A stretch of 64,000 nucleotides of DNA from Perna viridis (taxonomy: Eukaryota). The stretch spans positions 6,324,001 to 6,388,000 of the forward strand of contig CM074512.1 in assembly GCA_037379345.1 (NCBI GenBank), read 5' to 3'. Below, one piece after another: positions 16,825 through 40,800 of the stretch (within the stretch, counting starts at the first letter, position 1; each line of letters opens with the position of its first letter). A program made the translations under genes and the position numbers. Under the pieces are notes generated by a model. That model saw only the letters and a list, made by a program, of their open reading frames with translations, was not told the DNA's origin and ran no database searches.

Positions 16825-19800
16825 CTGGAAAATAAATATTTGCTTCGTTAAGAATTCCTTTAACAAATAGGCTTTTGGAACAGGGTTCTGTTGCTACAAG
16901 ATTGAAGTCATCACTACAGAAGTTTTATGGTCGTTATCGTGAACTCGTGGATCGTTATGGTGTATCCATCAGCACCATGAAAACTGATTTATTCAACGGG
17001 TCATATTTTTCCTTACCCTACCGGCGCACCTGGTCCTACTTCCAGTTTTTAGTGGAGTCCGAGTTGCTGATTTACTTTTGTTACTTTGTATGTATGATTT
17101 TAGTTACTTCATGTTTTTTGTTGTGTATGTCTGCTTTCCATGTCTGGTCTTGGTCCCTGGATTACATTCTTTTGATTACCGCTATAACCTTGGTTCCCTT
17201 GATTACTCTTTTAAATTAAAAAAAACATTCCTAATCATGTTTTTTTGTACTTGTAAGCAAAATATAATTCCCTAAATACTTCCTTTTGGGACGCTTACCC
17301 AACCTGGTCTATGATCCAAGTTTTTAGTGGAGTCGAAGTTGCTCATTTACTTTTGTTACTTTGTATGTATTATTTTAGTTATGTTTTTTGTCGTATTTGT
17401 CTGATTCCCATATCTGGTCTTTGTACCTAGCCTGGATTACATTCTTTTGATTTCCGCTAGAATCTTGGTTCCCTTGATTACTATTTTTGAGACAATGGTA
17501 TTATTATTAAATAAACATGTTTTAATTTCTATAAAAACAGGAGATGTGTAATCGTTACCAAAGAGACAGTCATCCACCAAATATCTAGCAACAAACAATA
17601 AAGCGTCTACAGGTTACTCTACGGTCTTCAATGATGGGCAAAAATGCATATTTCCATTTTCCAGGTGTAAATTTGTCATAGAAAAATAATTTTTTCTTAC
17701 CTCCAAAGTTTGGTAGTACGGCGTGTGACCAAATATCGTCCCATGATGGTAGAGGATTTCTGTGTGGGATCAGAGATCTGATATTTTCCAATGGATTAAT
17801 CATTCTGTCGATTTCTAGGAGAGATTTCATCTCCAACGGTAGATATATGTCCATTTCAATATGACCCTTTTTGGGGTCATACACAGTAATTTTAGTTTTC
17901 TTCATATCAAGTATGATGTCTCTAAGATTGCTGAATTCCTCTTCAATATCTTTTTTGATGAAGTTGACGAATTTGGCAAACACTGAGTGAATATTTTCTT
18001 CAATTTCCCAGTATTTGTACGCTGATGATGCCTGCAAAAATTATTGTATTAAGTACATCTCAAAAGACAAAAAAGAAAATTAATGAAAAATAAACATAAA
18101 CAAAACAAAACAAAAACGTAAAACTCCATAAAGAACAAATGTTCCAATATATTTCGACGACAAAAAGTGTATATTTTATTTTGAGGTAAAATCATTTACA
18201 TGTATTGTGTCATACTTAATTTCTTATTTACTTTTTATCAACATACGCAAAGGTCAACAGTATTTCAAAATTCTACGACATACCATGTTATAAACTGATG
18301 TTGGCATAGTTTTGGTAAGTTCGCTTTTGATAGTTTCTCTTGTATTGTATATGACAGTGTTGTACTGGTCAGCCATTTCTTTCAAAGGAATTGTGGGTAG
18401 TCTTGATTTTACAGCATTTATAATTTTGTTGCTAGACAGTGAGGAAACTGAAGCTGAAATTGAAAGTTGTCATGTTTTTTTTTCGCACTGTTCATCACTT
18501 AACATATGCTTTATGAAATTCACCAGAAAATAATGGTGAGGATAATGAAGCTTTTGTTATGATTTAAAGTGAAAAGTAGTTTTTCAATTTTTTATGTCGG
18601 ATGAAAGGCAATATAATTTTCAAAATATTGTCAAACATAATGTACAGTCATAGAGTAACAATTTATATCGTAAATAACAAAAGTAAAACGAAACAATAAA
18701 ACAAAAAAAAATCAATGAATCAAAAAGAAAGATGTTATGAAGTCGCACGATTTGAAAAACGCGTAAATTAAACGAATATAAAGAAATTGTTTTGATACAA
18801 TAAATTTTACTGGTAAAACCAATTATATCGTTTATTTAAAAAAATCGATTGAGTAGGTCATTTACCTGTTACTGGCTTCCCATACTTGTTGTAAACTCTT
18901 TCAATTGATGTCGACAGTTTGGATGATTCAGAGTGGACGAAATCAGCAATCTGAGAGTAATATTGGAGTGATAAGTCCTCCGTCAGCTGAAACAAACGAA
19001 GTGTTACGCTGTAAAGACCAGCAGATACTTTCATTATATATCAAGTTAACATTTTGTAACAATATTTAATTTTGTAAGACAAAACAGATATTTCTGTGGT
19101 AGAGAAAATTAAATTCAAAATACCTTGACAAGTTGTGTAACCTCAGCTAGGTACAGATTGTATCGTGTCATATCGATATCTCTGGTCAATTCAATGATGT
19201 CGGCCTTCATTTTCTGGACATGATTTCTAAAAATAAAGAAAGAGTATTTTATGGCATTACACCTTTTTGTATTTTTTATAAATATAAGACAGAAACGGGT
19301 ATATAGTTCACACACCATGATACTTAATCATACATGTGTTTAAATACAGAAAAAAAGTATACAATATTTTGATATTCAGATTGTTATTGATAACTGAATC
19401 ATTACTGATATTAATAAAACTCAAAGTTTTAATGGTTTATTTCAAAATTTTTAAAAAATCACTAAAAAATTGGTTTTGGTTCATTATCCATATTCAAAAA
19501 AAATATTCAGCCATCGTCGAAACATAATTCACTTCTTTGTTAATATCTTCGCCTATAAAAGGTCAGAACAACATCTCTCCACACCAAATGACATAACACA
19601 TATACTAATGCAACCCAGAAATCCCTGCTGTATATACAGTTATAAAAGTATGAAGAAAACTTTCTTTCCTTTCATAGCTGGACTTCTATTAGACCACATT
19701 TGAAAAGGAAAGCGCTAGTATTCCAACTTCAATGGATCAATGTTTTTTTGGGGGGATGCTATATCTACTCTTATGAATTAAGTGCCAATTCAAATCATCT

Positions 19801-22800
19801 TCGCCTAAAACTCCCTTCCATTTTTATTGAACTGTGAAAGGACTTTCATTTTGTTGGTCCACGTAGAATTTGTTAAAAAAATATTTGAACGATTTCTGTT
19901 AGCTTTTTAATTTATCAACACATTTATTTCAAGTTATATCTAGCCTACATCTATTTTCTAAAATACAACTTTTCCATTTCACAGGTATGGCATGTACGAT
20001 AGCATAATATTCTAAGACATTTTAAGCCATGACATCTTGAAGTTTGGAAATTGAGAATATATGAGGAAATAACCCTACCTCCTCTAGTGTATGACTAACT
20101 ATTTTTTTTTTTATCTTTGATACATGATACGTATTTGTATATTTGACCAATTGAATAAAAAGGACTTCTTCATTAACTTATTACGATACCGAAGAACAAA
20201 GGAGATATATTTAAAGGTACATTTATTGGCATTGCCTAAAAAGATATATTATTCGTTAATGTAATTGTCTCACCTGATAATTTTTTGAGTCGTCTTGAAA
20301 TGTGAGGAAATGTCTTTGAGATAATAATCATTATTCGCCTTCATTCGCTTGAGGTCGGTAATTCTATCAGACAAGGATTTCAGGTAAGGCTTTAGATCTT
20401 CTTTGATTGCTGTAACAATTATGGAGTGTTTGTGTTGAACCTCCTGTTCTACTGAAGTCCAAGTGGTCTCCAAAACTTTGTTAATTCCGTCTCCATATTT
20501 ACGGATTTTATTCATTCCAGCAACCTGGAAGTATAGATTATTAACATGCTAATCAAACAGTTTACCTTTCCCTAGCTTGCCGTATCTACTGTAGACAAAT
20601 AAATTAAAGGGATTTACTGTTGAGGTCTACCATTATAAAACAGAGACGTCATACTGAAATATCTAATAAGAGAAAATCCTTACAAAAATAAACACAAAAC
20701 CTAGTAACTTACATCACACAGGAACAATTATTGAATTTAATTACAGAAATCCACTGAATCTATCTACATGACATCTATACATCAATCCCCCGCCTTTTCA
20801 TTCAAGTTTACCTCAAATTGTACATACTTCATCATAATTCCTATATTTTTTTAAAATTTATTTATTATTTTCTTACTTTGGCTAATATGAGACAGTATAG
20901 TTAGACATCTGTAACTACACCTAATTTTGGTAGAAATTATCGCATCCGGTATTATATTGCTATTATGAACGATTGTAGTTTCTAAGCACTTTCGATAACT
21001 ATACGACAAACGCGATTACTTTATTGTCAACTTTTCTTTCATCTGTGGCAGCATCCCTTCAGCACCTGCGTATTTAATTTACATATCACAACTCATATGT
21101 TATGCCAGAGCTTGCCGTAACTACGCAGACGTTTTGTACCGCGCTAGACTTCTTACAATTAGGCTTCAGGAACAGGATTATGCTGCTACAAGATTGAAGT
21201 AATCAATACGGAAGCTTAATCATTACCCTAATGAATTCGTGGATCGTTACCGTATATCCATTTGCACCATTAAAAAGTTATCTTTCCCTCTTTCGTCTAC
21301 CTTGGTGTTGACTTTTTATCAGCAACTCGGCAGATGTTTCTAGAAAGGCAGAGGACGCTTACCCTACCGGTGCATCGGTCCATTATCCCAGTGTTTAGTT
21401 GAGTCCAAGTTAATCCTTTACCTTTGTTGCTTTGTACGTGTTATTTTGGTTCATTTCATGTTCTTTTTTGTATGTGTCATTTATCCATGTCTGGTCTGTG
21501 TACGTTCTTTTGATTTCCACTAGAATCTTAGTTTCCTTGATTACTCTTTCAGTTTTTGTCTTTTTTTTTCTTGTAGAAATGTCTTATTCACTTTTTGGCG
21601 TTGAAATAAATCATGCAGAAGTATCACCTTGACTGTTTTGAGAAGGTCAGGGTTCCAATGGACTGAAGTATGCAGTATTCTTGAAGTCTTGAGGCGAAGG
21701 TTAAGAAGGGTATCAGCAATTCTCTTTTGGTTCACATTTCTGTATACTTCAGCTGTAAGTCCGGTACTATCAGCCAGTTTAGCATTTACATGAAGAATAT
21801 TCTGTGGATTGTCTGTAATAATTCAAGAAACATCACTGACAATCTTTTAATTTATCCAATGACGAATTCATCGCTTAAAATACGGTAGTCAGTTTATTCA
21901 CTTAACATTGCGTTTCATATCCAATATAAAATAAATGGTTCTTATACAAACAAATACTCAGTTTAAGATATTATTATTTTCTCAAGTTAAAAAAATGATA
22001 TTGATTTGATGAAGGGGAATTGTCTTGTACTGGTGAAACATAACTAGCACAGGAAAAATAACAATTTGAGCAGTCAGAGTATTTGTAATTAACGTACCAA
22101 TATCGTAGTTAATGCTTGCATCAAGACTGGTGTCTGATGGGTCGAGGACGACCTCAGCATTGATAGGTTTGATATTGTCATACAAGTTCTGAATACTGAT
22201 TCTGTAAGGTGCTGATGTCTGTAGTTGGCCTTTTACATTGATTGCTTTGATTGGAGAATCAAGCTGAAAAAAATCAAAGCACATGATGCAATAATTCACA
22301 AACCTTATAATAGTCTGAACAAACTTAAGAGACACAAAGATGCGCTAAAATTGATTTCATTGATTGAGATCTTTACTTTTCTAGTTCAAATATGTTTAAA
22401 AGTTAGTATGACTTTTTTGTAAAACTCACTATACAAGGAGTAATTAATGCAAAATACTTTTAAACACAATTCATTTCAATTATTCACCTCCAGTTTTAGT
22501 GTGTTTTTCAAACTGTTAATTTCAGTCATTAACACAACGTTTTTAGTCTGTCTGTCTGATGTGAGGTATTTCACATCTATTGAAGCAATTTTACTGTATT
22601 CAGTAGATTCTAAACTTGATGCCATTTCTACGTCAACGGTTGTGTAAGGATGTTTGATTCCAACGTTAAGATTGTAGTTTGTCTCACTACCAGATGAATT
22701 GTCTTCTAGTTTTGTGGTCAGTAATAATGTTTTGGAAGGATCTCTGGAGTATCGTAAGGCAGTTGTCCCATCTAACAAAATTCCTCCTTTATTGACTTTA

Positions 22801-25800
22801 ACGTGCGAGTCCAGATGTACGTCCTTAAATAAGAAATCGAAATATTTAAATAAACGAAATAGATTTGCACTTGTAAAACAATTTTCTATGAAAACAAATA
22901 CGTTGAATGGTTTGAAACATGTAATACTGATTTCAGATTAGTTGTATGTGTAAAATTAATTGAAAAAAAAATCGATTTTGGTAATGAAAACAAAACAATA
23001 ATAGTATTTAGTTTTAACTTTTAAAAAAAATAAATGAACCTTATAATTTGATTGATTTTTTTTTATATTATTCTTTCATATACCTGGCCAATACTTGGCA
23101 TCTCAAGGATAACATTTGCTTCAACACCTTCATCACTTGGATTGATCTCTCCTTTAACAGTCACTTTCTTTGTCTGGTCTCTATCTGCATCCCAGTAGAA
23201 GGCAGTAGTTGCCATCGTAGAACCAAGACGCTTTTGAACTTCATTGGAAACCATGACCGACCTAGAAGGAAATCTGAGCTTAATACTTGAGGCCCGTTCA
23301 TCTTCAGTGTGTTTACAATCAAATGTGTATCCAAATACATCCTTGTTACCCACACTAACATCGAAGGTGGCAAAATCTTTCTTGTTATTCTTTTCAAGTT
23401 GACCTCTAAAGCCGAACGACTTTTTCGGGTGAGTCAATCTGAGTGCTATACTACATTTGTCGTCGTTATGGTTCAGATAGGTTTCCATGTCAATGCTGCT
23501 GTCGGTTTTGTCTGTATTCCAATTCAAGCTAATGTCAGTATTCATTTTACCAGCCTCCATATTTCCACCGATCCTAAAGTTCATAGGTCTGGGATGTCGT
23601 GTAATAATTGAAACGGTATGATGCTCTGCTTTGGTGTAAACAGCATCAAGGTCTATCAAATGCTTTGCATTGTGTTCCAAGAAGATAGATACCATTTTAT
23701 TATCGTCAGAATTTTTATGTCCAATGTCGATCTTTGCCATTTTCAAGCTTTTAAATGGAGTTGAAATAACCAATGAATTTTTTATACCGTTAGTTACATC
23801 ACAAGTTGCATCAAGTGATATTTTATTATCTTTGTTCCAACTAGTTTCGACATGTGATTTGTATTCTCTGCCTGTTTTCTGGTTTACCAAGGATGCACTC
23901 ACACGTTCTAAATGTTTGAAACCTGTTGTAAGAATTGCTGTAGTCTCCATGTCCAAAATAGAAGCATATCGGAGATGTATTTCTGAATAGACAGGTTTGA
24001 ATAACGGAGTGGTTAATTCAAAAGTGACCCGCAGATCATGTCGGTCACCAGAGCATGACATTCTTACATCAGAAGATTCAAAACCATTGAATGGTGTTAG
24101 TACGGTGACTCTGGCTGTCATAGGACTGCTATCAACATCAATCAAAGTTTTGAAACTAAGGGCTTGGTTATTAAGTTTCGCTGATGTTTCTAGATTGTAA
24201 ATGTTGTTTCGACTTTCAAGGAATCCTTTTGCAGAAAAACGTCGTGCTATTTTGAAAGGAGTGTTAAGTTCCATACTCAGGGATTTGGATGTCAGTTTGA
24301 AATCCCCAACTAGTTGAATACCAGTTGAACATTCGCAGCTTGTAAAAACAGTAGCAGTTGTATCAATATTGTGCCTATAGATAAATCTCATCAGCTCATG
24401 TCCTTTGATAGGTGTTTTCACTTCAGCTTTGATATCAGCTTTGTTGTAGCGTTTGTTAAATACGTTAACGCTTATTTCGTAAACTTTTTCAGGAGAAAGG
24501 GAGAAAACGACAGAGTTTGAAATCGTGTTTGCCTTAATGGCACACTTTACTGAAGCAACCATGGATCTAATAGATGTGAAAGGCGTCTGAATCTTTATCA
24601 TTGCTTCAAATGAAGGTTGTACTTTAAATGTAGATTCTAGTCTTATCTCATTATTATCCAGTTTGGTTTTAACCATGACGCTCATGTCATTAAAAGATCT
24701 TGCTCCTGAAATTTCCATTTCTGCCCTTTTTACTGTTCCTGCAACACTGATATCTACTGATGATGTAGCTTTCGCTTGATTTCTTGTGCTAATGTCAAAA
24801 TTAGTAGTTGATGTGAAATAGTTTTCACTGCCGATGGATGCAGAGAAAGATGATGTGAACTTCTGAAAAGAGCCTGATGTATCATACTTTATGTTAATGT
24901 CTTCAACAACTGCAGTTTTCAGATCCAAATTTCCTTGGATAACACCCATGCTTCCAACGTGTTCGAAAGTCAAGTCATAAATTGTTTGGCTTTCAATTTG
25001 AACATCTGACGTTAACAGGAAATTTGTAGGATTGTCGTTAAAGTTAATGTTGAAGGACATATCACTAATACCAGAGAATGGTGTCTTTACGTTAACCTCT
25101 CCATTGAATGGAAGGCTTTTATCGAAGGAAGAACTTATTTCAAAATTCTTAGATCCAATTCTCCCATTAATCTGAAGTGAGGTTGTTTTACCTCTAGTGT
25201 CATACTGCATATTAGCAGAAACGTCTTTATATCCTTGGAATGGTGTATCAATTGACATTTTAGCATCAATCATGTCATAAGATACAACTGAGAAGTCACC
25301 AGACATAGCCTGTCCGTTGTAGTCTACATTCAGGTTCAACGAGTTCTGAAAATCAGCAAATTTACGGACGATCAAAATCTTGCAATTATGTAATGAAGAA
25401 CCATCAACGTTGACCAAAATAGAGGCACCAAGTTTATTTTTGGTGAGCTGAAATGAAGATGTCACTTCGAGATCTTTTGTGTAAGGTGTTGTTAAGGAAA
25501 GTTTAGCAGTATATTTATTATCAAATGACAGAACTGCTGCTAAAGTTGCTTTCTTATCGTTGTATGATGATTCTGTTTCTATACCAAATCGTGAACCTGT
25601 TGTTATCAAGTTAAATTTTGAACCTATGTTATAGTTCTTACGACCGTAGTTAATCTGGACATTGGTGGTGAAAGCAGTGGGTTGCCCTCTGTACTGAATG
25701 TTGCAAGTCACGTCATTCGTCCATGGCGTTTTAATTTCAAGATTACTGGAAAACCCAGACACAAAGTCAACAGACAAATCGCCCGACACTGTTTGACCAT

Positions 25801-28800
25801 TGAAACTGACTTCAACTATGGACTTAAAGCTATCGGAGTTTTTCATCATATTTAAACTGACATGTCCTGTGTGTTTAATAGATCCGTAGCTGGCCGCAAT
25901 GTTAGACGTAAATGCTTTTGGGGTTCCTTCAGTTGTAAGAGACGCTCTCAAATTCTTTGTCCATGATGATTTTATGTCAAGTTTTCCAGAAACTGTTGAT
26001 TTTGTGTTAAAAGCAAAGTTTGCTGAACAAGATTTATCATTATAGTTCACGTTTATTTCGGTTTTAAACTTTCTGATGGAACCTCTTGTTTTGAAATCAA
26101 TCGTAGCATCATGTTTGAGAGATCCGCCATAACTGATCTTTATATCTGATTTTAAGCTAAGATGGTTATTTGCAAGATTTCCAGATACGACAACATCGTC
26201 ATAAAATGGTGTCTTTAAACGGAACTGAACTGTCAACTTATCTTTTGAATTAAAAGATAGAGAAAATGACCCTCTCTGTTTGTTGTATTCAAGAGAACCC
26301 ATCGTTGATAATTTTTTCAATGAACCATCAAATCCGAATTGAAAGCTAGTATCATGTTGAAGTTTTCCCCCATAGGTCACTTTCAGGCATGTCTTGGAAT
26401 GCTTAAGGTTACCTTCTGTAGAAAATGCAATGATTATATCATCTGTAAACGATGTTTTGGTTGTCAACTTGCCTTCAATTAAATCACTCGTGCTGTCGAA
26501 AACAGCTGTGACTGCTGCATTCTTCTTGTTGTACATTAGTGATGTTTCACCTGTGAACTTGCTCATAATACCAATTGCTTTAAATGTAAAACTTGCATCG
26601 TGTTGAAGTTTTCCACTGTAAGTAATTTTAAGGCACGACTTGAAATTATTCAGTTTGCCTTCATGAGAAAAGTGAATAATAACATCTTCGGAAAAGGGTG
26701 TTTTCACCGTCAATTTCCCTTCAATAAACTCAGAAGTGTCGAAAGCAACTACTGCTGATGTCACTTTGTTATTGTAGGTCAAAGACGTTTCTGTATTAAA
26801 TTTCGCTAGAACACCATCGTGATTAAATTTCAAACTAGCATCATGCTGGAGTTTTCCACTGTATGTCATTTTAAGACATGACTTGAAATTCCTTAGTTTG
26901 CCTTCATGAGAAAAGTGAATAATCACATCATCAGAAACAGGTGTTTTCACCGTCACTTTCCCTTCAATGAATTCAGATATGTCGAAAGTAATTTCGGCTG
27001 ATGTCATTTTGCTGTTGTAGGTCAAATATGTATGTGTATTAAATTTAGCTAAACCACCATCGTGATTAAATTTCAAACTAGCATCATGTTGAAGTTCTCC
27101 ACTGTATGTTATTTTGAGACATGACTTGAAATTCCTTAGTTTGCCTTCATGAGAAAAGTGAATGATCACATCATCAGAAACAGGTGTTTTCACTGTCAAT
27201 TTCCCTTCAATCAATTCAGATGTATCGAAAGTAATTTCGATTGATGTCATTTTGTTGTTGTAGGTCAAAGATGTATCTGTGTTGAATTTAGTTAGACTAC
27301 CATAGTGATTAAATTTCAAATTAGCTTCATGCTGAAGTTTTCCACTGTATGTTATTTTGAGACATGACTTGAAATTCTTTAATTCGCCTTCATTAGAAAA
27401 GTGAACAATAATACTGTCTGTTATAGGTGTCTTCAGAGCAGCCTTTCCTTCAATACTGTCTGTGGCTTTAAATGAAACATCAATGGAAGCCTGTTGTCCG
27501 TTCAATCCAATTTCTGCATATGTGTTGAAATTTGTTAATGTTCCTTCATGACTAAAAGATCCTTTCAATTCAAATGATCGTTTTCCATATGTCAATCTAC
27601 TCATCGAATGGAAGTTTTTTACTCGTCCTGAATGTTTTATTAAGGCCGAGAAATCTTGTGTATATGGTGTTTTTAATTCGAGTTGTCCGTCAATATTATT
27701 TGTACCGTCGAAAATAACTTTTATACTGTTTTTTTTATTAATGATTATTGCTTCAGCATATGACCTGAAATTGTTAATTTCTCCATCAAAGTCAAGTTTT
27801 CCTGAAACTCGTTTACCATTATACACAGCTTGTGCTGAAGATTTAAGAGACTTAAAGTCTCCAATGGTAGAGAATGTCACTTCCATTTCATGTTGTTTAG
27901 CTCCGTTATATGTCAACTGAGACAGTGAGCGGAAATCACCGAAGTCATCGTTATTCGAAGTTGCGAAAATGATGTCCTCTGTAAATGGGGTTTTAATCAC
28001 AGCATCAATCTGTATTCCATTAGTCAAGTCTGTTGTCACTTGTCCAGTTATCTTATTGTTACCATATCCAGTTTCGACAACTGATTTAAAGTTATTTTTA
28101 GTTCCATCATGATTAAGTTTTAGAAGAAGGTCTTTGGTGTATGGACTTTTAACCGTTGCCCTGATATCGACACGGTCGGCAAAAGTACTTGTAAGATCTG
28201 CCTCAGCAACCTTCCCATTGACGGATATTTCAGCATGACTATCAAAGTTATTTGGAGTCCCTGCAATACGTGTAGATATATCACCCGATTTAAGATAACT
28301 GAATGGGGTCTTGATAGTGAATGAAGCTTTTGCCATGTCACTCACTGAAAATAGTAAATTCGCTTCGATTTTCTGTTGATTAATTCCAGCTTCTATTTGC
28401 CCGTTCAACTTTCTCTTTGATCCAGATTTAGAATACGTTAAGTATATTGTTTCTGCATCTTTAAATGGTGTTAACATTATGATGTTTCCTTTAATGTCTG
28501 ACTTGCTTTCCATTTGTGTCTCCAAAGAAAGTTTTTTCTTCCCATAAAATATCTGGACTAAAGCTTTGTTGTTTAACATTCCTCCATCATATTCGTAAGT
28601 TCCTTGAATCTTAGGCAGGTTACCAGCTTTCAAAGACATGGTTCCAAACGGAGACCCCTTTCGTCCAATTAACGAGTCAAAAGAAAAAATAGATTTCTTG
28701 CCATAATCAATGTTTATTGAAGTCTTCATTTTACCTCCATCGTTGTGATGAACATTTGCTTTTACGGTGTCAAAATATGGTGTCATAAATGTGAATTTTC

Positions 28801-31800
28801 CTTCGACCCCACTAATAGTATTAAACTTGAGATCAGCGAAGCTTTTTTTCTTGTTAAAAAGCAGATTTGTTCTAGAATGGAAGTTGTTTATACTGCCACT
28901 GTATGTAAAGGACACTTCTGTAACTGGGTATACTTTTGAAGGTATTGAAATCTTGGTTTCTGCGGACAGCTGATTCACAGAGTCAAAGTTTAGTTCAGCT
29001 ATATATTTGTCCTTATTTGATGCAATATTCAATTTCGTATTGAAGGCAGTTAAATGACCAGAATGTGAAAAGGAACCTGTCACCCTTTCATAATTTTTGA
29101 ATGGTGTCATTACTGTTATATCAGTGCTTCTTGTTTGTCTGTCAACCAAGAAATCTACTGAAATTGTATCTTTCTTGAAGTAAGTTATCTCCGCATTTGT
29201 CTTTATCTTTTTAGAAGATACATCGTGCTGCAGAGATGCTTTTACGTTTTTGTAACCAGCATAAGGAGTCTGTGCAGCAACCAAAATATCGATAGATGGA
29301 TTTACAACAACATTCACATCCCCAGCAATTACATATTGCTTTCCCCGGGAAAATTCGGCGTGAGACTGAAAGTTGGTTAATGTTCCTTCATGAGAAATTT
29401 CTGCATTCATTTTTTTCCAGCCAGCAAATGGAGTCTCTAGTGAGGATGCCCACATAATTTTAGAGCCTAAAGATGTCTTCATATTGGCTTTTATCATATC
29501 TTTTCCTCTCTTAACACTCGCATCGCATTTAAAATTCTTCCAATTCCCCTCATGCTTAACATTAGCGACGACTTTCTTAAATCCTTTGAACGGCGAGACA
29601 AAAATGAGGGTTGCTTTCATGACTTTTGCCAAGCGGAAGTTCAAATCGGTACTGATTTTTTCTTTTTTGCTAAAAATCAAATTAATTCTATTTCTAAAAC
29701 TTTTGAGTTGCCCTTTATGAACGATATTCAATGTCATATCATCAAAGAACGGAGATGCTAATTTCAAGGATGCCTTTGTACTCTTGCCTGTGATCAGTGC
29801 GATATCAGCTGAATTTGGTTTCATTTTTCCGTAAACGTATTCTGCATGGGTTTTCAGATTCTTTAGAGATCCTGTATGATGGAAGGAGGCTTTAAAATCT
29901 TTTATATAGGCAGATTTGATTATCAAAGATCCTTGCATCTTGGCAAGATTTTTGAAAATAACTTTTGCCTCGTGTGGTTCTCCTTTCTTAAACTGGGTCC
30001 TCATTTCAGTACTAAATTGTTTAAAGTCTCCCTGATGGGTGGCTTCAAAGCTTATTTTGTCTAAATTAGGACATTTGTATGAAATAGCTGCTTTAAAATT
30101 CTTAGCCTTGTTGTTCAAAGCAAAGTCAAAAACATGCTTCTGATTACCTTTATACTTCAGTTCAGCGTGAGTTTCGAAGGAAGGATATTTTCCTTGGTTG
30201 AAGAAAGATAAACTGACTGGATAGTGGAATGGACTTGTCAAAGTGGCAAACCCTTCGGTTTTTTTGCTTTTGTTGAAAGCAAAATCAACGGAATAATGCT
30301 TTCCTTTCGGATACTCAATACCTAAAGATGAAATCAAGCCCGTTGTTTCGTCAACTTTATGCTTAAGTGATGCCGATGCGTGTCGTAAGGCTCGGAAAGG
30401 AGTCTTGATTTCAAGGGAAACCTCGATATTGTTAATATTCATTTGATGAGTTGCTTTTCCAGTAATGAATTTGCTTGGCATGTATTCAATATTAGCTAGT
30501 GTTGTAGTAAGTTCTCCTTTCCTTTGGCTAGAAATCGTAACTTGACTGTATGGAAGGCTTTCAAATGGAGTTTCAATTCTTAGGTTTCCATCGATGCTGC
30601 CATACATATTAAATGCACCTGAAGCAAGGAGTTTTTTTGTTGTTGGCTCTGCCTCGACACTGCCAATAAAGGAAAACGATCTGCGGTCACCTTTAGCTTC
30701 TAGTACTGAGTTAATAGTCTTCATTGTTTCGTATGGTGTAGCAATGGATGTTGTGAAAACGAAATGGTCATCAACTCGGAATTTGTTTTCTACTGAAATT
30801 TTTCGTCCTGTTGAGTAGTCCATTGACACCAACGTAACGATTACACCGTCAATATTACTTTGCTTTGCCACCATAACAATATCATCTGCAAATGGTGATG
30901 AAACCTTCAAGGACCCTTGTGGATATCCAGATGTCATATCTAAAGCTGCATCTGCGTGGACTTTCTGACTATCTTTCGCCAAATCAAGGTTTATTTTTTT
31001 CACTGGATCAGTGGTATAGCTTAGGTCTGCTGTATATTTAGTTCCCATTGGACATGTGTACGATAGGGCGGATCTTTTTTCTGATTTTTTATTAGAGAGT
31101 TGAAAAGATCCAGACATAGTTCTCATCCCTGAAAACGGGGTTACAATGTTCAGAGTTCCCTCAGAGAAACTGTCTCGCATTATATAACGTGATTTGAGTT
31201 CGATGTTTTTCCTAGGCAAATATTCAATGTTCAATTCAGATGATGTCATTCCAGATGTAAGTTTGCTGTTTACTGTTACTTGGCTGTATGGAATTTCCGA
31301 GAATGGAGTATCAAGTCGAAGTTTACCACTCAGTCCGCTGACTGTGTTCCATTCAGAGCTAAGCTTAACTGTGTTTGCCTCTAAATATGCCATACCATTT
31401 CCGTTTTGTAATCTGAACAATCCTTCTATTTTATTGATATTTTGAATTGAAGAGCTGAGAGATATTTTTAAAAACTTGATGTTATCCCATTTATGTCTTT
31501 TTTCAACAGATAGTATTTCTTCATTTCCGTACTGAAGAGAGGTAGATAACAGCATTTCATCATCGTTAGCACCACCAGCTATAATTACTATAGGTTTGGT
31601 AAATGGTGTCTTTACCTTAATTTTACCGTTTTGTCTGTTCTGCTGTCGGTCAAAGGAACCTGATATGTCAATTTGTTTTTCATTCATTTTCATATTGACC
31701 TGGCCTGTCATTGGATATTTTTGATAGTCTGAAACAACTAAAATCTCGTTTGAAACACCAGAGGAAGACAAAGTGGTCTTGAAATTAACTTGTCCAACTT

Positions 31801-34800
31801 TTCTGTTGTAAACAACTTTACCAGACATGAGGGGTTTTCCTCCTAGAGAAGCACTTATTGAACTGTCAACTAATGATGGCTGGTGGGTGTGATCAACACG
31901 GAGAAGAATTTCTTCGTTGAAAGGAGATTTTAGTTTAAAACTGACAGATATTCCACCCTGTTTTAATGTCAGGGCCTGTCGTCCACTTAAATCTATTTCG
32001 AAAGGTTTTCCTCCGATATTTGTGGTAAACTTTGAAGTTATTTCTCCGCTAGAATGGATATGATCCCATTTTGTCCTGAATGTATCCCGTCCAGCTGTAA
32101 GGATTACTTTGCCGTTTGTTTTGAATCCTGCTCTAGTAAATTTGTGACTTCCTTTTCCTTCATACATAAATTTCTCTCCATTAAGGTCAAATGTAATGGA
32201 GTTGTAGAATTTATTATCTGATAGTTGATTGGTAAGAGTCAGGGACGATGAGCCGAGTCTATGGTAGGACGTTTTAATACTGACTGATCCTTTGATGTCA
32301 TTGATATTATTGTTGTTTAAGTCAACTATCAGATGAACGTTTTCCTTGTTAAGTTGCATTTTCAGACTTGATTCTAGTTTGGTATTGAAAGTATGATTGA
32401 TTTCAATAGATGACGATTTAATGCCAGTAAAAGGTGTTATAAGAGTAACCGCTCCATTGATGTTTACTCTCCCAAATGGTTTGTCAAGTCTCACTGTTAA
32501 AGCAACTTTCTTAGAATTACCCCATGACAACTCAATTTCATTTGAGTATTGCCTATCAGAAGATACAAGATTGTACTTAAGCAGTCCATCTTTAGATAAA
32601 GTCTGTATACGAATTTCTCCAGATTTTTTGCTATCGTCATCAGCATGGATAAGATCGAAAGCGAATCTAGATTTACCTCCAACGGATACGTCGAAATGGC
32701 TCTTGGTTTCTTTGCCTATAACGTGGTTGTAGTGAGTGTTAATATTCTGAATTGGATTAGTAACATCAAATGTAGCACTGACCTCTTTTGCGTCCTTATT
32801 GATAACTTCTCCGACTAGTTGAATCCTTTTTGATGGATCTATGTCAGCATCCCATTTGAAGTCAACTTTCCCAAAGTATTTGGGATGATTTTTTTCAGCC
32901 TCGATTTCAGCTATGATACGGGTCTTATCAACTCTGATATCACCACCTACTTTGATCATTGTGCTAGGTTTGTACTGTGAGGTAAATGTCATCGCTAAAC
33001 GTTTTCCTAATTGCACACCTACGCGAAAGTCACGTTTTCCTCTGTTCAACTGACCAGCTATAGTGAAAGTTTTCATGTTTGGAAGGGAAATGACATTAGA
33101 AATATCAAATTCGTTAGTTGAAGCCACCTTAGCTGTTGATATAACAGAGGCCTTTGTCTTTCCTATAACGGCTGAAAAGTCATTACGATACTTTTGTTTG
33201 TTTTGTTGTATGAACACGTTAGAGAAGGTCATCGATCGTTGATTCAAAGACATCGAAATTCCCCCGGCAATTGACGATAATTTTTTACTCTTATCTTTAA
33301 GGAATACTGATGCTGAAATGGTGTGTTTCTTTCCTATAGACATTGAGAGTGTAGTATCAAGAGATTTCTTGTTGTGACTATGGCTTCCTTTAATTTGCAC
33401 ATCTATACCCTGTCAAAACAAAAGAAACTAGATTTATAGAGGTCAGACAAGCAAAAGAGGAAAGAATATTTTTACTTAATTTTCTTTAAAAATGGTTTAT
33501 ACGACATTTTAATATTTCATTTGTTTACTTCAAAATACTCACTTTTTCACATCAACCATAGGTACATTGATTAAAAACATATTTCAAAAAATATAGAAGC
33601 AACACATAGATGGTTATTGATATAAAGAAAGACGCTTACTGTTTCGGGATGTTGGAGTTGTGCATTAAGACTAACATCACTTGCTCTCCATGCCAACTGA
33701 TGTTTGACAACCGATGAAAAATTGATAGTTTTGTCTAGGTTTTTCTTATTAGCTCCATATTTGACACTGACGTCAGACTTGGTCAGCTTGGCGTTGCTCA
33801 AAATGTTGACTCCAAGATTGAGGTTTAGGTAAGACATCTTTTTAAAGTTTAAAACTCTGTTAAAAAAAATAAAAGAAATGACATCACGAACATCTCAATA
33901 GAGACAATCATTTAAAATATAAACACTAAAACATCCTTTTTGCTGTGGCGATGATATCCAATTTTCTCTACATCCAGGTAACTTTAAAAAGTTATTCAAA
34001 CACACATTAAGCTATGCGAGTTAATTAGGTCCTCAGACCTTTTCGGCACATAAACTGATGCGAAATGGAGGCATTGTATTACACCAAAAAAGGACGAGAC
34101 AGATATTTAAATTGGGCAAAATCCAAAGAAGGTGAAGATTTGTTTAAATTTTATCGATATCCAACTAGTTGGGGCCACAAGGCATCATTAAAAGGGATTA
34201 AATTTCATACTTAAAAAATTGTTTTAGCGACCATTTATTATTCTTACCCATTTCCTTTCACTGTTGTAACCTTCTTCGTACTTCTCCAGTTGACCTTGGA
34301 ATTCATTGTGATTTTGTCACGTGCAACTCGTGGAATGATGTAATCTATATTGGTCCTGGTAATTATAGATGTTGGCCTCAGAATAAAGTTTGCTCTCCCC
34401 TTGGTAGTAAATACGGGCGACTGAATGTTTATCTTGGACTGCAATCGTGTTTGCTTGGCATTTCCGGTGTCTCTTACTTGGACTGCAAGTGAGCACGTAT
34501 GTTTTATGCAAATATTGGCAAAAAGCATTGTTTCTCTTGGAAAGAAACACGCTGTTACCAGGAATGAAATAGCGTCCAAAATGACATATACTAAAAATGC
34601 CGTTTATTGACATGACCTGCGTATTTTACTTAAAATAGTTTTTATGGTGAAAGAGAGATATGTTGTATTTCATTTAACAGATAAAAAATGTTTATATCAA
34701 CAGTGTTAGATACGCATATTACGTCAATAAATGGTAATTCTCTAAAATGACCTTAATAAGGATATCCTGTTATTTCTATTGCCTTACAAATAAAATAAAC

Positions 34801-37800
34801 TTAGTAAAATAAAGTAACACCGTGTTTAAACTATTCCATTTGAAATGAAATATGTTTTTTATTAAATTTCTTGTTGTTTCATTTTTTGGTGTTACGTTTT
34901 GTTTACCTTATGTTCAGTTATCGTTTATATTCGGTTTGTACTGATTTTTGATGCACCAGATTTGTTCCGTTATTGACGATATTATTGCCGATATTTATAA
35001 TTATTTTAGAGAGAAGATTTCTTGCTTTATGCCATTAAAAGATTAAATGTTATTCATATGTAATGTTACTTACCAAGATATTTCATTGGTGATTTAGTAA
35101 GACCAGTTACCGTCAAGTCCACTTTAACTGCTTGATTGAATTTAACTTCTACGGAACCTCCAAGTCCCATTAAGTCCTTAGAGAGAGCTTTGATGGAAAC
35201 AAACGGGCTGTATCTGAGTGATTTTTTAGTTTGAAGGGTTTGAAGTCTGGTCTCAAAACTGTATTCCTCCTTCTTACTCAAGGATACGCTGGCTTTTACA
35301 GACCTTATTACCTTTTTATTCAATACTGATACTGTGAATAGAATATATCCATATATAATATTTATATCACAGACATTTCAATAATAAACTCTTTAAGATT
35401 TGAAACAAGATTTCTTTTTTTTTTTACTTTTGAGAATTATTAGTATGCGAATTTTTATTATACCGATGACGTCCTGCAAATGCCTTCTGATTTGGAAAAT
35501 AAATAACAAAAGTGCGAAAAAGTATCACAAAAGCCCGGCAATTCAGATTTTACTGTTTTTTGGCATAGCCTTGCTAAAACAATCTTCCCAAAATAAGCTG
35601 TTGTGGATTTTCCTGTCTTGCATTCTCAATGGTGTTATGTTCTTCATTTCTTAAAGTTAATGTATTAGCCATTGTTTTATATAACTTACCTCTCATATTG
35701 ATAGTATCCTTTGACACTCCGTAGACAGAAACAACAGCATCAAGAGTTTTTCCCGCTAAAAACTGAACAGTTCCGTCAAGTTTAATATTATCTCTTCGTG
35801 GTATAATTATTTCTAACGTTGGAGTGTAGATCCAAGTGGAAGATTTCTTCTTTTTTGCTATAGCAGCATTTACGGAATATTCTCTCTGATCAATTGTAAG
35901 TTTACCATTTAATTTTCTCTCCTTTGTCACAATAGCGCCTAAAATTAATTTCTGTATAAGTTAGCAATTGCAATTATAATCCTAACAAGAATAAATAATG
36001 AATCGATTTTAATGTTTATCTATTTTCCCTTTATTATTTGGACGCATTTTTGAAAACTTATATAAAATTTACAGAGAAAATGATTTCTTGATTTTGAAGT
36101 AAAACCTTACCATTGAATGCCGCTTTTTTCCATGGAGACAACATGACCATCTCTAAATTGTGTTTATTCAAGTTCAAGTTCAATCCAACTTTCATCTGTC
36201 TGTCGACCTTAGATCTTGGGGTGTTAAATTCGGCATTCACCGATACAAGGGATTTCGTCTGAAAACGATATGTAAACTATTTATTTGTTTGTTTGTTTGT
36301 TTGTTGGGGTTTAACGTCCGAGCAGCAATATTTCAGCTATATTCAGACGATGAACATGAAATCGATGATAAAATGAACATAAAATAATGAAATGAAAAAG
36401 GGATGGGACACAAGGACAATGGTGTCGACAAAACGTGGCATCTTTCCCAACACGGTGCACCACTATGGTTTGCGGTCAGGTTTTCCGTATTATAGCCTGA
36501 CAACCCCAGCATGTAACACGCCAGGGGTACCCCATTGCACCGCCTGGGGCACACATCCCAGTTGCTCTGTGGGCTAAGGTTCTGAGCACTATTTAGTCGC
36601 CTTTAACGACAAGTTAAGCGCTGCTGCAGGCCTATTCTTTTAACACCCGGACCTGCACGGGGATGTAAACTATTTAGGTTATTGTTGCCACTGACTTCCA
36701 ATCTTAAAACAGTTGCTGCTATTCTTATAATATTAAAGATTTGTGCGTGAAAAGGTTGATGGTCCCACTCTGTTACTCTTATAAATGTTTCTTTTTAAAT
36801 GATCATTTTTTATTATCTCAATTATCTCACCAACACATGTTAATTGACTGTTGCAATAAATTTCTTTATCAGTTTAAGAATGTTGTTGTGAATGTAATTA
36901 CCTTAGCAAACTTATACTCCATTTTGTAGCTATTATGAGAATCCCTCTTGTAAAGAGTAATTCCAGCTCTGACAGGACCCGTTAGTGGAAAATATGGAGC
37001 ATCACTTTTCATTGAAGCATTTGGGTAAGAGATTTCTCCACACATTTCTAGACCGCTGACCTGAGCAAGTGTGTCACCTGTACAAATTTTTTTCGTCTGT
37101 CTGTTTTTTGTAACCATTTTCTGTTCTTTGGCTTCGTCACGATGAACAGTGAAAAAACTTGTTCTACAATGCGAAACTTAAAGTTAATATTTTAAACAGC
37201 AAAAAGATTTTTTAAAAGGCGATATTTTTTTTAATGTTTAGATAATTACTTTAGTTCAGTATGTACTTTACTCTGACCAGTGAAAACCATTCGTATTTCA
37301 CTGTACTCACAGATTTTATTCGCTTAGAATTTTTGTTATTGCTTTTTTTTACTAATAGGATTAAAATAATGAATTTCTGTGGTTCGTCAACAATCTCTGC
37401 ACTTTTGTGGTAAATTTAGTACAGGGGTTATATTTTACCTTGCTTCTAGGATCTCCGTCTTCATGTCTGGGGTTTTCCATTCAGCACTTAACAGTTGTCC
37501 TCCCTTAAGTTCAATATGACCTTCAAGAGCGGAAGCTGAGTTCATTGATGAAATCATCTTCATTCCAGCTTTTGTGACAAAAGCGTCGACACTCATCAGA
37601 CTTGTAACTTCAATAGCAGCACTGGACAAATGTAATTATAAGAATTAACACATATTGGTAATATAATTTAAGATCTTGTACAGCAACCATATAATGCTAT
37701 CAAATCAAAAGTAATGACAAGAATTTACATTGTGTATTATAACAATAAAAGAAACAATAAAAATATAATGTTTTAGAAAATTACCTAGGCTTAATTTTTC

Positions 37801-40800
37801 CGTTGACAGAGATGGTCCTTGGGTTTGATCTTAGTTGTCTTAGATCCATTTTACCAGAGGCTGTGAGATGGACAGTAGCACTACCATCAACACTTATGTT
37901 CAGTGGGAATCCAGTCATTGTTGGTATTATCACGCTGGTGTCCAGAAACATAATGTTCTGGGTCATGGAATAATCTTGTTCTTTCGCAAGGTTGATAATG
38001 AAGTCTAAAATGTTGAAGTTCTTTCCCTCCAATAAGGTTTTAACATCATCAGAGTTGATGTACTGTAGTTCATTTCCAAAGATTCTTAGATACATGCTTC
38101 CTCTCAAATCCTCCATCGTTTTACCGTACTGGAAGACAATATACGAATTAGTTGTATGCTTTTCTACATAGAGTTTACAGGAAATTCACATTACAACAAA
38201 CTTAGATATAAAGAATTCACAATGTGCAAGTTTTCAATCAACTTGAATACATACTTATGTAGTTCTTTTGAGTACTTTAAGTAAAAAAAAACTATAAGGA
38301 CGTCTTTGTTTTGTCTTGATAAATACATAATTAGCTAATGTGTTATTATTAATATATTATATTCATTATTTAATACCTGTTCATTCAGTTTATTCATGGC
38401 CTGGTTACTTATACCCTTTACGTTCTGCTTTGTAGCTTCTTTGGCTTTTCCGAAGTATCCCTCTGGGCCAAAATAGGACTCAAGGAAGTACTCTAGTCCT
38501 TCAACTCGTCCTCCAAGCTCAAAAAGGTTTACTGATTGTCCAAATAAGTCAAAAGTGACGTTGGTGGTAACTGATCGTGGTAGGAAGGATTTGGATGACC
38601 AGATAAGGTTACTTTCAATAGAAGCACCGGTGTTGATCTTATCTAGGAAAAATGATGCCTCATAGTTTCTGGAATATTTTAGCTTTTCTAAGTTGAATTC
38701 TTTCTTCAGAATCTTGTTTGTCAGTATTCTTTTGATATTTTGTTTCAGAGGACTTGAAGTCTCCATAAGATTTCTCAGGTGTGTCCAGACAAATGACCCG
38801 ACTTGGTTGACATCTTCTGACTCCAGTGTTGTCTGTATGCGTTTGAGTATTGAAGTTGAAGGACATTTCATCAAACTTAGGTAGGCCGCAATTCTCAGTT
38901 CAGAATCTTCGTCGCGGTTTGTGTAAAGCGACATTAAGTCATTTCTCTGGAACAAAAATGTTTCCTACTTACAAGAGTATAAATAAGTGTATGACGTTAT
39001 TGAAAACAATCCTCACCAGTCTCTTACACAAAGAAAACAAGCCTGACCGTAGCCTCCATTTAGTAAAGGTAAGCACTTACCTCACCAGAATAACGATCAT
39101 GTATTTTTATTATCATTGATGTTATTTATATTTATTTGAGCTTAATGATATTCCATCACAGTTACTTATTTTAATAAATAATTGTCCGGTTAATTACAAG
39201 GTATAAAAATATAAAGAAATCTTAAGTTGAACCTATCTATCGATACTGATTGCATTTTATTAAATTGAGTTAGTTTTGATGGATATTTGCATATGTCTTT
39301 TTTTGTTCGAATAATAATGCCATCTCTGTAATGAAAATATAAAAATGGGAAGATTTCAAGGCTCGTAAAGCTGGCCCATCATTATATTCCTGAAATACTT
39401 AGCGTATCACATTTGCCTGAAATCTTGAACCAATAAAACAAGAATAAAATAAAAACTCGTGACTTGCTTCATTCGACAATTCTCCTAACATAAACACATA
39501 AGTCTACCTTCAATAATCTAATATATTTTATCAATTTCGAGATTCCTGATTATTCTTTTTTCGCTGAAAAAAAAACATGCATATTAAATAAGAATGATCT
39601 ACCCCCCCCCCCAACCATTAAAATAGAAAAAAATGGATAACCGGACAAGAGGAAGAAACAAATAGTCCTGTAAAATATATTGTAAATGATACATACACTT
39701 TCGTCACATGGCATACGTCTGAAAGCTTGAGCTGCAGTAAGCCGCACTTCAGTAGGGTTTTCCTTCTTGGTCAAACAACTGCTGATTACAGGGATAGTAG
39801 AGACAAATCCGGTGTTACCAAAGGCGCGTAGAGTTTGGATTACCTGTTAAAGAATCATTCTATTGCAGATTTTGTAGCACTTGCTTATTGACAATGAGCG
39901 AAATTTAATTATTGTTTAGTTCAAAATTCAGTTCACGTGTGTATCACATGTTTATACAATACGCTACGAAAAACACAGAATAGAAAAAAAATGCATAGTC
40001 TTGTTGTTTAATTGTTTTAGACAAGGATAACTTATCTTATCCACTGCTTAATGACTTAATGACATACATTGTTGACATTGTTCTCATCCACATAGCAACC
40101 AACAGCAATTTTGTCCTCCAAGCTGGAAATAAGGTTGATCATGTCAAGGTCGTTCGTACACTGTGATGTCTTACAGTAGGTGTTTACCAAAGAGGAAACA
40201 GCTAGTATGGCTTGACCATTCTTAGTGTTAGTCATCAGAGGCTGACATAAAAAAAAAAACATTGAAATATGACATAATGATAGCGTTATACAGTATATGT
40301 TATAATGAAAATAAATCGTTGTGCTTTCTTAAACTATTTGTTTTGTCTATTTCATTAAAAGCAGCGATTATTTGAATAACAACGTTTTTTGTTTTGCTTT
40401 TTTTTTACTTTTTTTCAAGACTGCTAGACATAAAATATAGTGTACCTTGAGCTCCATCAGCATATCTTTAGTTGGATTTTGGATGAAAGCTAGGCTAGTG
40501 AGCCACATGTCTGCTTCGTTTCCGGTAACCTCATTGCTATTGATTAGATTTGTAAGCATTCTCAAAGACGCTTGGGTACCAACCATAGGAATGGCATCAA
40601 GGAAATATTTCCTTAAAAATAAAGTAACCTGTCATTTAAAAGGTGATATTGTAAAGAAGCATTCAACAAAACACAATTTATGTAAACCTTAAAAAAAAAC
40701 AATTAATTATATTCGGTAAGGTAAGTGTATTTCTGATAACAATGTTACTTACTCGATATTTTTGTTGTCTGCACACACATTTCCAGAGTGGACCTTTTTA

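What the first reader, a model, noticed from the sequence alone, without database searches (positions are those of the whole stretch)
23084..33409. 10.3-kb exon built from ~50-aa and ~81-aa beta repeats: an extended lipoprotein beta-belt
Seen: one exon encodes 3,442 aa of alternating amphipathic strands with about 30 [TS]P[FYW] motifs, spaced ~50 aa in much of the exon and ~81 aa over ~25.4-27.9 kb. The total of ~5,512 aa exceeds human apoB-100 (~4,560 aa) and insect apolipophorins (~3,300 aa). Established: apoB also has one giant exon and wraps LDL with an amphipathic beta-belt. Inference: belt length here is set by modular repeat addition and may determine particle size. The TPF-type repeats also recall the crustacean dLp/HDL-beta-glucan-binding protein precursor, hinting at a joint lipid-transport and immune role.
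Basis: partly seen in the sequence, partly recalled or inferred. Interest (0 to 1): 0.7.

Follow-up and report, generated by a model that had tools for sequence, protein, structure and literature searches.

The report
Mussel lipoprotein with repeat-built giant belt
One 10.3-kb exon of a mussel gene of the apoB-type fat-carrier family encodes a run of about 255 regularly spaced strands predicted to form a fat-binding belt more than twice as long as that of human apoB, but such belts, some longer, are common in invertebrates, so this is a well-built member of a known kind.

Summary
Exon 20 (33409-23084, minus strand, 3,442 codons) of a 30-exon, 5,512-aa gene is spliced at exactly these ends, with no inner joint, in contigs of three studies. 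The protein is a bivalve APO-family lipid-transfer protein (LPD_N, DUF1943, DUF1081, VWD). The 54- and 81-aa repeats are four and six strands of one 13.5-residue amphipathic meander. AlphaFold models of 55% of the exon are all beta; for the longer one apoB-100 is the top Foldseek match (low TM). The predicted belt is about 290 strands against apoB's 120. Close homologs differ by even numbers of strands, so modular growth is supported; control of particle size is untested. The belt ranks 8th of 114 homologs. The repeat occurs across the crayfish dLp/BGBP precursor, mostly outside BGBP, and the furin sites that release BGBP are absent, so an immune role has no support. Extras: N-glycosylation sequons are depleted 20-fold; the gene lies in three 99%-identical tandem copies; paralogs in this genome have the same exon at about 2,920 and 1,970 codons. 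The scan noted a similar belt in another genome (e1-7832671).

The parts
15794..43971 (-). Whole gene (copy B), 30 exons, 5,512 aa, APO-family large lipid transfer protein
   Evidence: Homology-guided GT-AG model without stops; only the two ends of exon 20 were checked against transcripts
36111..43971 (-). Exons 1-15: hydrophobic N-terminus (likely signal peptide), Vitellogenin_N/LPD_N, DUF1943, DUF1081
   Evidence: Pfam on single exons: PF01347 49.9 and 52.3 bits, PF09172 103 and 82 bits, PF06448 43.7 bits, all above cut-off
33640..35938 (-). Exons 16-19: predicted start of the beta-belt, ahead of the giant exon
   Evidence: Beta moment exceeds helix moment from about residue 900 on; no Pfam match
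23084..33409 (-). Exon 20, 10,326 nt, 3,442 codons: about 255 predicted amphipathic strands at 13.5 residues each
   Evidence: AlphaFold models of 29840-33409 and 26423-28495 are all beta
27851..32515 (-). First zone of four-strand (52-56 aa) units, each with a [TS]P[FYW] loop
   Evidence: Motif spacing, autocorrelation peaks at 52-55, 106-109, 160-162, model strands
25430..27850 (-). Ten six-strand (80-82 aa) units
   Evidence: Autocorrelation z = 29 at lag 81; unit alignment; six strands per unit in the model
26580..27411 (-). Youngest part of the array: 3.4 copies of a 243-bp unit
   Evidence: TRF 88% matches; three units 85-91% identical in DNA, 80-84% in protein
23680..25429 (-). Second zone of four-strand units
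   Evidence: Motif spacing and repeat HMM; not folded
21628..22823 (-). Exons 21-23: predicted end of the belt, conserved in most homologs
   Evidence: Used as C anchor, found in 114 of 122 proteins in the right place; beta moment
17701..20524 (-). Exons 24-28: predicted amphipathic helical segment
   Evidence: Helix moment exceeds beta moment
15794..16824 (-). Exons 29-30: VWD domain, protein ends right after it (no C8)
   Evidence: PF00094 36.6 and 33.6 bits; stop codon
286..10135 (-). Exons 1-18 of tandem copy A; its giant exon lies just left of the window
   Evidence: 98.5-98.8% DNA identity to 33963-44585; all 30 exons mapped, 5,512 aa, no stop
10745..10752 (.). Junction between the 3' flank of copy B and the promoter side of copy A, with a 4-base microhomology

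Best explanation
This is a bivalve APO-family (apoB/apolipophorin-type) lipid-transfer gene whose giant exon encodes a predicted single, uninterrupted amphipathic beta-sheet that likely wraps a lipid particle in the hemolymph, as the beta-belt of apoB-100 wraps LDL. Shown: the exon, its splicing, the domain order, the 13.5-residue period, the four- and six-strand repeat units and length change by even numbers of strands among relatives. Predicted: an up-down sheet of 10-residue strands with one greasy and one polar face, about 290 strands (139-147 nm) from DUF1081 to the helical tail, without the helical inserts of apoB. Inferred: the N-terminal module is loaded with lipid in the ER with the help of MTP, the sheet binds lipid with its greasy face as it is made, the proline loop every fourth or sixth strand sets the bend, and in-frame unequal crossing-over inside the intron-free exon adds or removes hairpin pairs without flipping the faces, so that a longer belt carries more lipid.
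For: Domains LPD_N + DUF1943 + DUF1081 + VWD; DUF1081 is reported as specific to APO proteins (PMC1783640, passages; PMC10799875, passages). Tree of 65 N-modules places it with Mytilus P0003 (100) in a bivalve clade of long-belt paralogs (95). Fourier peaks at 2.1 and 13.4-13.6 residues. Two AlphaFold models cover 1,881 of 3,442 residues: 51 and 87 full strands, no helix of 4 or more residues, mean pLDDT 78.5 and 73.8. Faces 66% and 17% hydrophobic against 52% and 31% in shuffles. Foldseek ranks four apoB-100 entries first for the 1,190-aa model (E 1.5e-10 to 3.6e-7). The N-module is constant (1,104 +/- 38 aa) while the belt varies from 1,429 to 4,845 aa and tracks motif count (rho 0.79, 114 proteins; rho 0.49, p 0.04, in 18 disjoint pairs). 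In 16 disjoint close pairs the 22 indels of 20-130 aa fall at 23-30 (4), 35 (1), 46-58 (11), 78-84 (2) and 96-110 (4). Only 2 N-x-S/T sequons against 45 expected, which fits passage through the ER under selection against glycans.
Against: No lipid binding, particle or tissue was observed for this protein. pTM is low (0.38, 0.34), so the overall curve of the sheet is not predicted. The fold matches are weak in shape (TM 0.21, rmsd 43-80 A), and for the 691-aa model teneurin shells and outer-membrane barrels score as well as or better than apoB (rank 11 in Foldseek; VIA Z 9.1-9.3 against 13.1 for a barrel). No sequence match of the belt to apoB-100. The planned test for indel quantisation was borderline in disjoint pairs (16 of 22 against 53% expected, p 0.05); the stronger figure (0 of 22 at odd strand numbers) uses windows chosen after seeing the data, and an aligner favours gaps in repeat register. 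45% of the exon was not folded. Transcripts of other individuals match copy C better than this copy.
Confidence: 0.8

Rival explanations
1. Molecular ruler: the belt closes once round the particle, so strand number fixes its circumference; this protein would make discs or spheres of about 44-47 nm, and its paralogs with shorter exons smaller ones.
For: About 290 strands x 0.48-0.51 nm = 139-147 nm (120 strands = 61 nm in PMC11839476, passages). One genome holds three exon sizes, about 1,970, 2,920 and 3,442 codons. Bivalve paralog clades keep distinct belt ranges, 2,090-2,584 and 2,935-3,915 aa. Large discoidal lipoproteins exist in a crayfish and a polychaete (PMC8416765, Discussion); their diameter of about 40 nm is recalled and was not found.
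Against: ApoB-100 serves particles of many sizes with one belt that is proposed to slide past its own N-domain. A 140-nm belt could equally make two turns round a 22-nm particle. Crustacean precursors are cut into pieces. No particle size is on hand for any mollusc protein of this family.
Confidence: 0.3
2. Joint lipid carrier and pattern-recognition protein: part of the belt binds beta-1,3-glucan or LPS like crustacean HDL-BGBP.
For: The crayfish precursor named beta-glucan binding protein 1 (P0159) carries the same repeat: 5 of its 25 [TS]P[FYW] motifs and 2 HMM hits above the reversed control lie in the BGBP segment. [quoted passage not shown]
Against: 10 HMM hits above control lie in or at the end of the large dLp part and 1 in the small one; none of 7 BLAST matches between the belts lies mainly in the BGBP segment. 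The furin sites at 3047 and 4152 have no counterpart; the single R-x-K/R-R site here is absent from the Mytilus ortholog. No glucan-binding domain in Pfam. The repeat is shared by spiders, annelids and priapulids, so it marks the belt, not a ligand.
Confidence: 0.15
3. Lipid-transfer catalyst or yolk store rather than bulk carrier: like insect LTP the long sheet would shuttle lipid between cells and other particles, or be stored in eggs like apolipocrustacein.
For: Drosophila apoLTP is an APO protein that carries little lipid and acts as a transfer protein (PMC3406001, passages); apolipocrustacein is an APO-family yolk protein (PMC1783640). Four of the listed RNA-like runs, three of them from studies with a holder, have next to none of the exon's words, which hints at tissue-limited expression. 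Tandem amplification fits a need for high dose.
Against: Whether the long insect homologs found here are LTP was not established (they are unnamed). In a snail the Apo genes are not highest in the ovotestis and vitellogenin is the yolk protein (PMC10799875, passages). Tissues of the runs are unknown.
Confidence: 0.2
4. The three tandem copies are partly an assembly artefact (uncollapsed haplotypes), and this copy is a redundant or weakly expressed duplicate.
For: Copies are 99.2-99.7% identical in the exon. Three RNA-like runs lack the allele private to this copy at 20 of 21 sites and carry the copy-C allele at 5 of 10 C-private sites. A second paralog also appears as a 98.6% pair.
Against: Three pairwise different copies need at least two loci in a diploid. 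No N gap in 162 kb. Differences are mostly transitions (57 of 82) and richer in silent changes than chance (A 19 of 57, B 8 of 21, against 21% silent sites), with no frameshift. The A/B junction has a short microhomology. An unnamed ENA protein differs from B at 16 and from C at 15 residues (start residue aside), so it mixes alleles of both. Mytilus galloprovincialis has three consecutively numbered loci of the sister paralog at 96-98%. Contigs collapse variants and cannot count copies.
Confidence: 0.25

Closest known systems
Molluscan apolipophorin-like (Apo) proteins; nearest Mytilus galloprovincialis P0003 (5,242-aa model) and oyster proteins of 5,383-5,435 aa
   Same: Domain order, giant belt with the same repeat, 49% identity over the whole exon and 77% in the N-module
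   Different: One extra six-strand unit (78-aa indel); three tandem copies here; six-strand spacings are seen in the mussel paralogs and not in the oyster proteins
Human apolipoprotein B-100 (PDB 9e9r, 9ea7, 9bdt, 9bde; PMC11839476)
   Same: Homologous N-terminal module (E 2.5e-49 over residues 36-980, tested with the mussel paralog P0019); a long amphipathic sheet of about 10-residue strands behind it; best Foldseek match; one giant exon (exon 26 holds at least residues 3059-3826; its 7.6-kb size is recalled)
   Different: About 290 predicted strands against 120; no helical inserts against nine inserts of 1,779 residues; regular proline-loop repeat; C-terminal VWD; no sequence similarity in the belt
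Crustacean dLp/HDL-BGBP precursor (Procambarus P0159, Penaeus P0127; PMC8416765)
   Same: Same N-module (34-35% identity), beta signal throughout, same [TS]P[FYW] repeat at 52-57 spacing
   Different: The precursor is cut at two furin sites into three apoproteins and has no VWD; this protein lacks those sites and keeps a helical tail and VWD
Insect apolipophorin-II/I and apoLTP
   Same: APO family, LPD_N + DUF1081 + VWD
   Different: No furin site behind the N-module; longer than apoLp-II/I (about 3,300 aa, PMC1783640), but shorter than two unnamed insect homologs of 6,115 and 6,231 aa

Membership tests
APO family of large lipid transfer proteins | N-terminal LPD_N / Vitellogenin_N module | tested here: met
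   PF01347 above cut-off on exons 4 and 11
APO family of large lipid transfer proteins | DUF1081 domain (reported only in APO proteins) | tested here: met
   PF06448 43.7 bits, cut-off 25; definition from PMC1783640
APO family of large lipid transfer proteins | Groups with molluscan Apo proteins in an N-module tree | tested here: met
   (65 of the 122 full-length proteins; no vitellogenin, apoB or named apoLp-II/I rows, so unrooted among Apo-type proteins)
APO family of large lipid transfer proteins | Secreted (signal peptide) | tested here: inconclusive
   Hydrophobic 17-residue N-terminus like that of homologs; sequon depletion; no signal-peptide predictor was run
APO family of large lipid transfer proteins | Lipidated in an MTP-dependent way and circulating as a lipoprotein | not testable with these tools
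   Needs density gradients and proteomics
apoB-100-type beta-belt | Continuous amphipathic antiparallel sheet behind the N-module | tested here: met
   Predicted for 55% of the exon; beta moment over the rest; shape not resolved
apoB-100-type beta-belt | Nine large, mostly helical inter-strand inserts | tested here: not met
   No helix of 4 or more residues in either model; no 100-residue window with helix moment dominant between the N-module and the tail
apoB-100-type beta-belt | Structural match to the solved belt | tested here: inconclusive
   Top four Foldseek hits for one model, rank 11 for the other; TM 0.21; other long sheets score alike
Crustacean dLp/HDL-BGBP precursor | Two furin sites that release a central BGBP of about 1,100 aa | tested here: not met
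   Only one R-x-K/R-R site, at residue 1476, not in the Mytilus ortholog
Crustacean dLp/HDL-BGBP precursor | Shared belt repeat | tested here: met
   HMM hits up to 45.7 bits, reversed control at most 14.3; this feature comes from this work, not from the family's literature
Crustacean dLp/HDL-BGBP precursor | Beta-1,3-glucan binding | not testable with these tools
   Needs a pull-down
Insect apolipophorin-II/I | Furin site just behind the N-module | tested here: not met
   No R-x-K/R-R before residue 1476
Vitellogenin | LPD_N + DUF1943 + VWD without DUF1081 | tested here: not met
   DUF1081 is present; criterion from PMC10799875

The most novel reading that the evidence does not exclude
Invertebrate APO proteins are length-programmable lipid belts: a pure beta-sheet of hairpin-pair modules, kept free of N-glycans, whose strand number sets the circumference of a lipid disc or particle. 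One mussel genome would encode three calibres (about 145, 215 and 255 strands in the giant exon), the largest near 45 nm across, and tune their dose by tandem duplication.
Probability: 0.25. Interest if true: 0.68.

Novelty: new member of a known kind. Interest (0 to 1): 0.38.

Why it matters
The region between DUF1081 and VWD of invertebrate apolipophorin-type proteins has no Pfam family in this protein and, in the papers I could search, no structural description. Reading it as one strand lattice explains why these proteins range from 2,900 to 7,000 residues and gives a natural length series (three sizes in one genome) with which to ask whether belt length sets lipoprotein size, a question open also for apoB-48 against apoB-100. 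A regular, insert-free beta-belt could also serve as a scaffold for large lipid discs. The gene family and its likely function are known, and the feature is shared by many animals, so the finding is informative rather than surprising.

Tried and rejected
Pfam on the exon: only sub-threshold PLL and DUF2760. PDB sequence search with the exon and with a belt profile: no apoB or other belt match. ESM Atlas: best score 0.86, below its own threshold, a lead only; its PF21013 (LOC400499) hint was followed: the family hits the start of the belt in amphioxus (118 bits) and abalone (32 bits) homologs but none of the 6 window exons tried nor the giant exon. Two separate repeat families: rejected, both lengths are multiples of 13.5. 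Exceptional size: rejected. Internal splicing: no joint in contigs of three studies, rare forms not excluded. Splicing of the other exons and the tandem junction were not checked against reads, so copy number in other individuals stays open; contig depth (14-17 in the DNA run) has no single-copy baseline. Teneurin/Rhs shell or outer-membrane barrel: same meander topology, rejected as family because the flanking domains are LLTP. Indel phase test over 810 gaps in pairs down to 33% identity gave no periodicity; such pairs align too poorly. Four homologs were dropped as mis-anchored (P0024-P0026, P0126) and four had no C anchor (P0128, P0133, P0134, P0159) before the 114-protein statistics; five models (P0040, P0055, P0056, P0077, P0032) were dropped from the indel count as alternative or cut models. 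Ten paper searches listed no paper describing this repeat or an invertebrate beta-belt; the library lacks most subscription papers, among them the original dLp/BGBP work, and no supplements were read. PMC10799875 marks SMART internal repeats in its figure of snail LLTPs, which I could not see.
Full report
Observation. The window holds an open frame of 3,449 codons on the minus strand, 33412-23066. Homolog-guided splice-site search gives a 30-exon gene from 43971 to 15794 that encodes 5,512 aa; exon 20 runs 33409-23084, 10,326 nt, phase 0 on both sides. Contigs of three RNA-like runs from three studies stop at exactly these two places and continue into exons 19 and 21; no inner joint was listed. 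The runs are only guessed to be RNA, but the splicing shows that these contigs are transcripts. The frame has 32 [TS]P[FYW] motifs (shuffles: mean 1.5, maximum 7 of 2,000).

One lattice, not two repeats. Hydrophobicity has its strongest periods at 2.1 and 13.4-13.6 residues, and turn-forming residues share the 13.4-13.6 period. Motif spacings are 52-56, 80-81 and their sums. AlphaFold models of exon residues 1-1190 and of frame residues 1640-2330, each with about 40 aligned relatives, are all beta with 87 and 51 full strands, mean pLDDT 73.8 and 78.5, pTM 0.34 and 0.38. The 54-aa unit is four strands and the 81-aa unit six, with the proline motif opening a longer loop. In the 691-residue model one face is 66% hydrophobic and the other 17% (52% and 31% in 500 shuffles). 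Ten six-strand units span 27,850-25,430, and three of them are 85-91% identical in DNA, a recent expansion.

Family. Single exons match Vitellogenin_N, DUF1943, DUF1081 and VWD above cut-off. DUF1081 marks the APO family (PMC1783640, passages; PMC10799875, passages). The nearest named protein is from Mytilus galloprovincialis, 49% identical over the exon. A tree of 65 N-modules puts the gene in a bivalve clade with belts of 2,935-3,915 aa, apart from a second bivalve clade with 2,090-2,584 aa. The same genome has the homologous exon at about 2,920 codons in a tandem pair of paralogs and about 1,970 codons in a third gene.

Comparison with apoB-100. The solved belt is 120 strands, 61 x 4 nm, 1,774 residues, with nine inserts of 1,779 residues (PMC11839476, passages; preprint 10.1101/2024.02.28.582555, passages). 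Homology is clear in the N-module (E 2.5e-49 with the mussel paralog P0019) and undetectable by sequence in the belt. Foldseek ranks four apoB-100 entries first for the longer model (E 1.5e-10 to 3.6e-7, TM at most 0.21); for the shorter model apoB is rank 11 behind teneurins and VIA Z 9.1-9.3 lies below several barrels. The match therefore shows a long meander sheet and fits, but does not prove, homology. Here the segment from DUF1081 to the helical tail is 3,915 aa with no helical window, about 290 strands or 139-147 nm by extrapolation. The belt would be 2.4 times that of apoB, although the protein is only a fifth longer.

How common. Among 114 full-length homologs that could be anchored (of 122), the N-module is 1,104 +/- 38 aa and the belt 1,429-4,845 aa; this belt ranks 8th and the protein 10th. 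A repeat HMM from this exon hits homologs in molluscs, annelids, nemerteans, a priapulid, chelicerates, crustaceans and insects, weakly in hemichordates, and nothing at 10 bits in reversed sequences (after iteration the reversed maximum is 14.3).

Modular growth. Belt length tracks motif count (rho 0.79 over 114 related proteins; 0.49, p 0.04, over 18 disjoint pairs). In 16 disjoint pairs at 50% identity or more, the 22 indels of 20-130 aa lie at 23-30 (4), 35 (1), 46-58 (11), 78-84 (2) and 96-110 (4), that is at 2, 4, 6 and 8 strands; the planned test gave 16 of 22 against 53% expected (p 0.05), and windows for odd strand numbers, chosen afterwards, hold 0 of 22 against 36%. Whelk homologs differ by 50, 100, 150, 200, 250 and 400 aa and abalone ones by 220 and 441. 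An even number of strands keeps the chain direction and the greasy face in register (inference). Whether length sets particle size is untested; apoB's belt is proposed to slide to fit several sizes.

BGBP. The crayfish precursor P0159, named beta-glucan binding protein 1, has furin sites at 3047 and 4152, as described for Astacus (PMC8416765, first part, passages and Discussion). It carries the repeat, but 13 of 25 motifs and 10 HMM hits above control are in the large dLp part against 5 motifs and 2 hits in BGBP. Seven weak BLAST matches (E 8e-8 to 7e-4; reversed control 0.004) fall mainly outside BGBP. The mussel protein lacks both sites. The likeness is real but reflects a shared belt, not a shared glucan site.

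Sequon depletion. The exon has 2 N-x-S/T sites against 45 expected (1,000 shuffles: mean 45, minimum 26; mirror motif 46). The median observed/expected ratio in 114 belts is 0.26; three insect-type long homologs are near 1.1 and four short abalone paralogs 1.25-1.75. This fits a secreted protein whose polar face must stay free of glycans, perhaps because it packs on another turn or copy of the belt (inference).

Tandem copies. The exon occurs three times on contig C2: copy A at -551 to -10,897, this copy B, and copy C at 90,257-79,911 in window coordinates, all with an open 3,449-codon frame, plus a decayed 3' fragment further left. A-B, A-C and B-C differ at 82, 71 and 31 bases. Copy C has a more distant 5' end (82-86% around exons 1-3). 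Transcripts of other individuals lack B-private alleles at 20 of 21 sites, carry the C allele at 5 of 10 C-private sites and the A allele at 2 of 61 A-private sites, so the main expressed sequence there is C-like. At least two loci must be real; expression of copy B itself is not shown.

Other papers. PMC8545670 (passages) lists the APO subfamilies; PMC6509969 (passages) links scallop apolipophorin expression to carotenoid-rich muscle; PMC3406001 (passages) describes apoLTP; PMC13332989 (passages) places apoB residues 3059-3826 in exon 26. No searched paper described this repeat (ten searches, see Tried and rejected).

Verdict. A real, well-supported feature of a known family. Interest 0.38; new member of a known kind.

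Noticed in passing
window 1-10748 and 33963-44585; loci L001-L008: The gene lies in a head-to-tail array of three near-identical full copies plus a decayed 3' fragment; B shares its 5' end with A but its body is closer to C, as gene conversion or unequal crossing-over would give.
   Followed up: partly
window 23084-33409: N-glycosylation sequons are depleted about 20-fold (2 against 45), a pattern shared by most lophotrochozoan homologs but not by long insect ones or short abalone paralogs.
   Followed up: partly
G000:C2:11,040,000-11,102,000 (L012-L018) and G000:C1:34,270,000-34,310,000 (L021-L024): Two further APO-type loci: a tandem pair 98.6% identical with giant exons of about 2,920 codons that also show 81-aa spacings, and a single gene with a giant exon of about 1,970 codons.
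   Followed up: partly
Homologs P0174, P0162, P0169 (Mytilus galloprovincialis): Three consecutively numbered loci of the sister paralog are 96-98% identical, and one differs by a 48-aa in-frame indel in the belt.
   Followed up: partly
Homologs P0122, P0036, P0129: Pfam LOC400499 (PF21013) matches the start of the belt in amphioxus and some invertebrate homologs, a lead that a vertebrate gene other than APOB may be the closer relative of this family.
   Followed up: partly
window 49009-49274: Intergenic 32-bp tandem repeat, 8.3 copies, 94% matches.
   Followed up: no
window 14867-17490, 21023-21550, 45300-46050, 53500-57570, 59700-61800: Dispersed repeats, several with short frames that look like fragments of reverse-transcriptase elements (judged by eye; not searched).
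   Followed up: no
L007-L008, window coordinates 105015-101761, minus strand: A 1,085-codon open frame just upstream of copy C whose start resembles the endonuclease part of a LINE-type retrotransposon (by eye).
   Followed up: no
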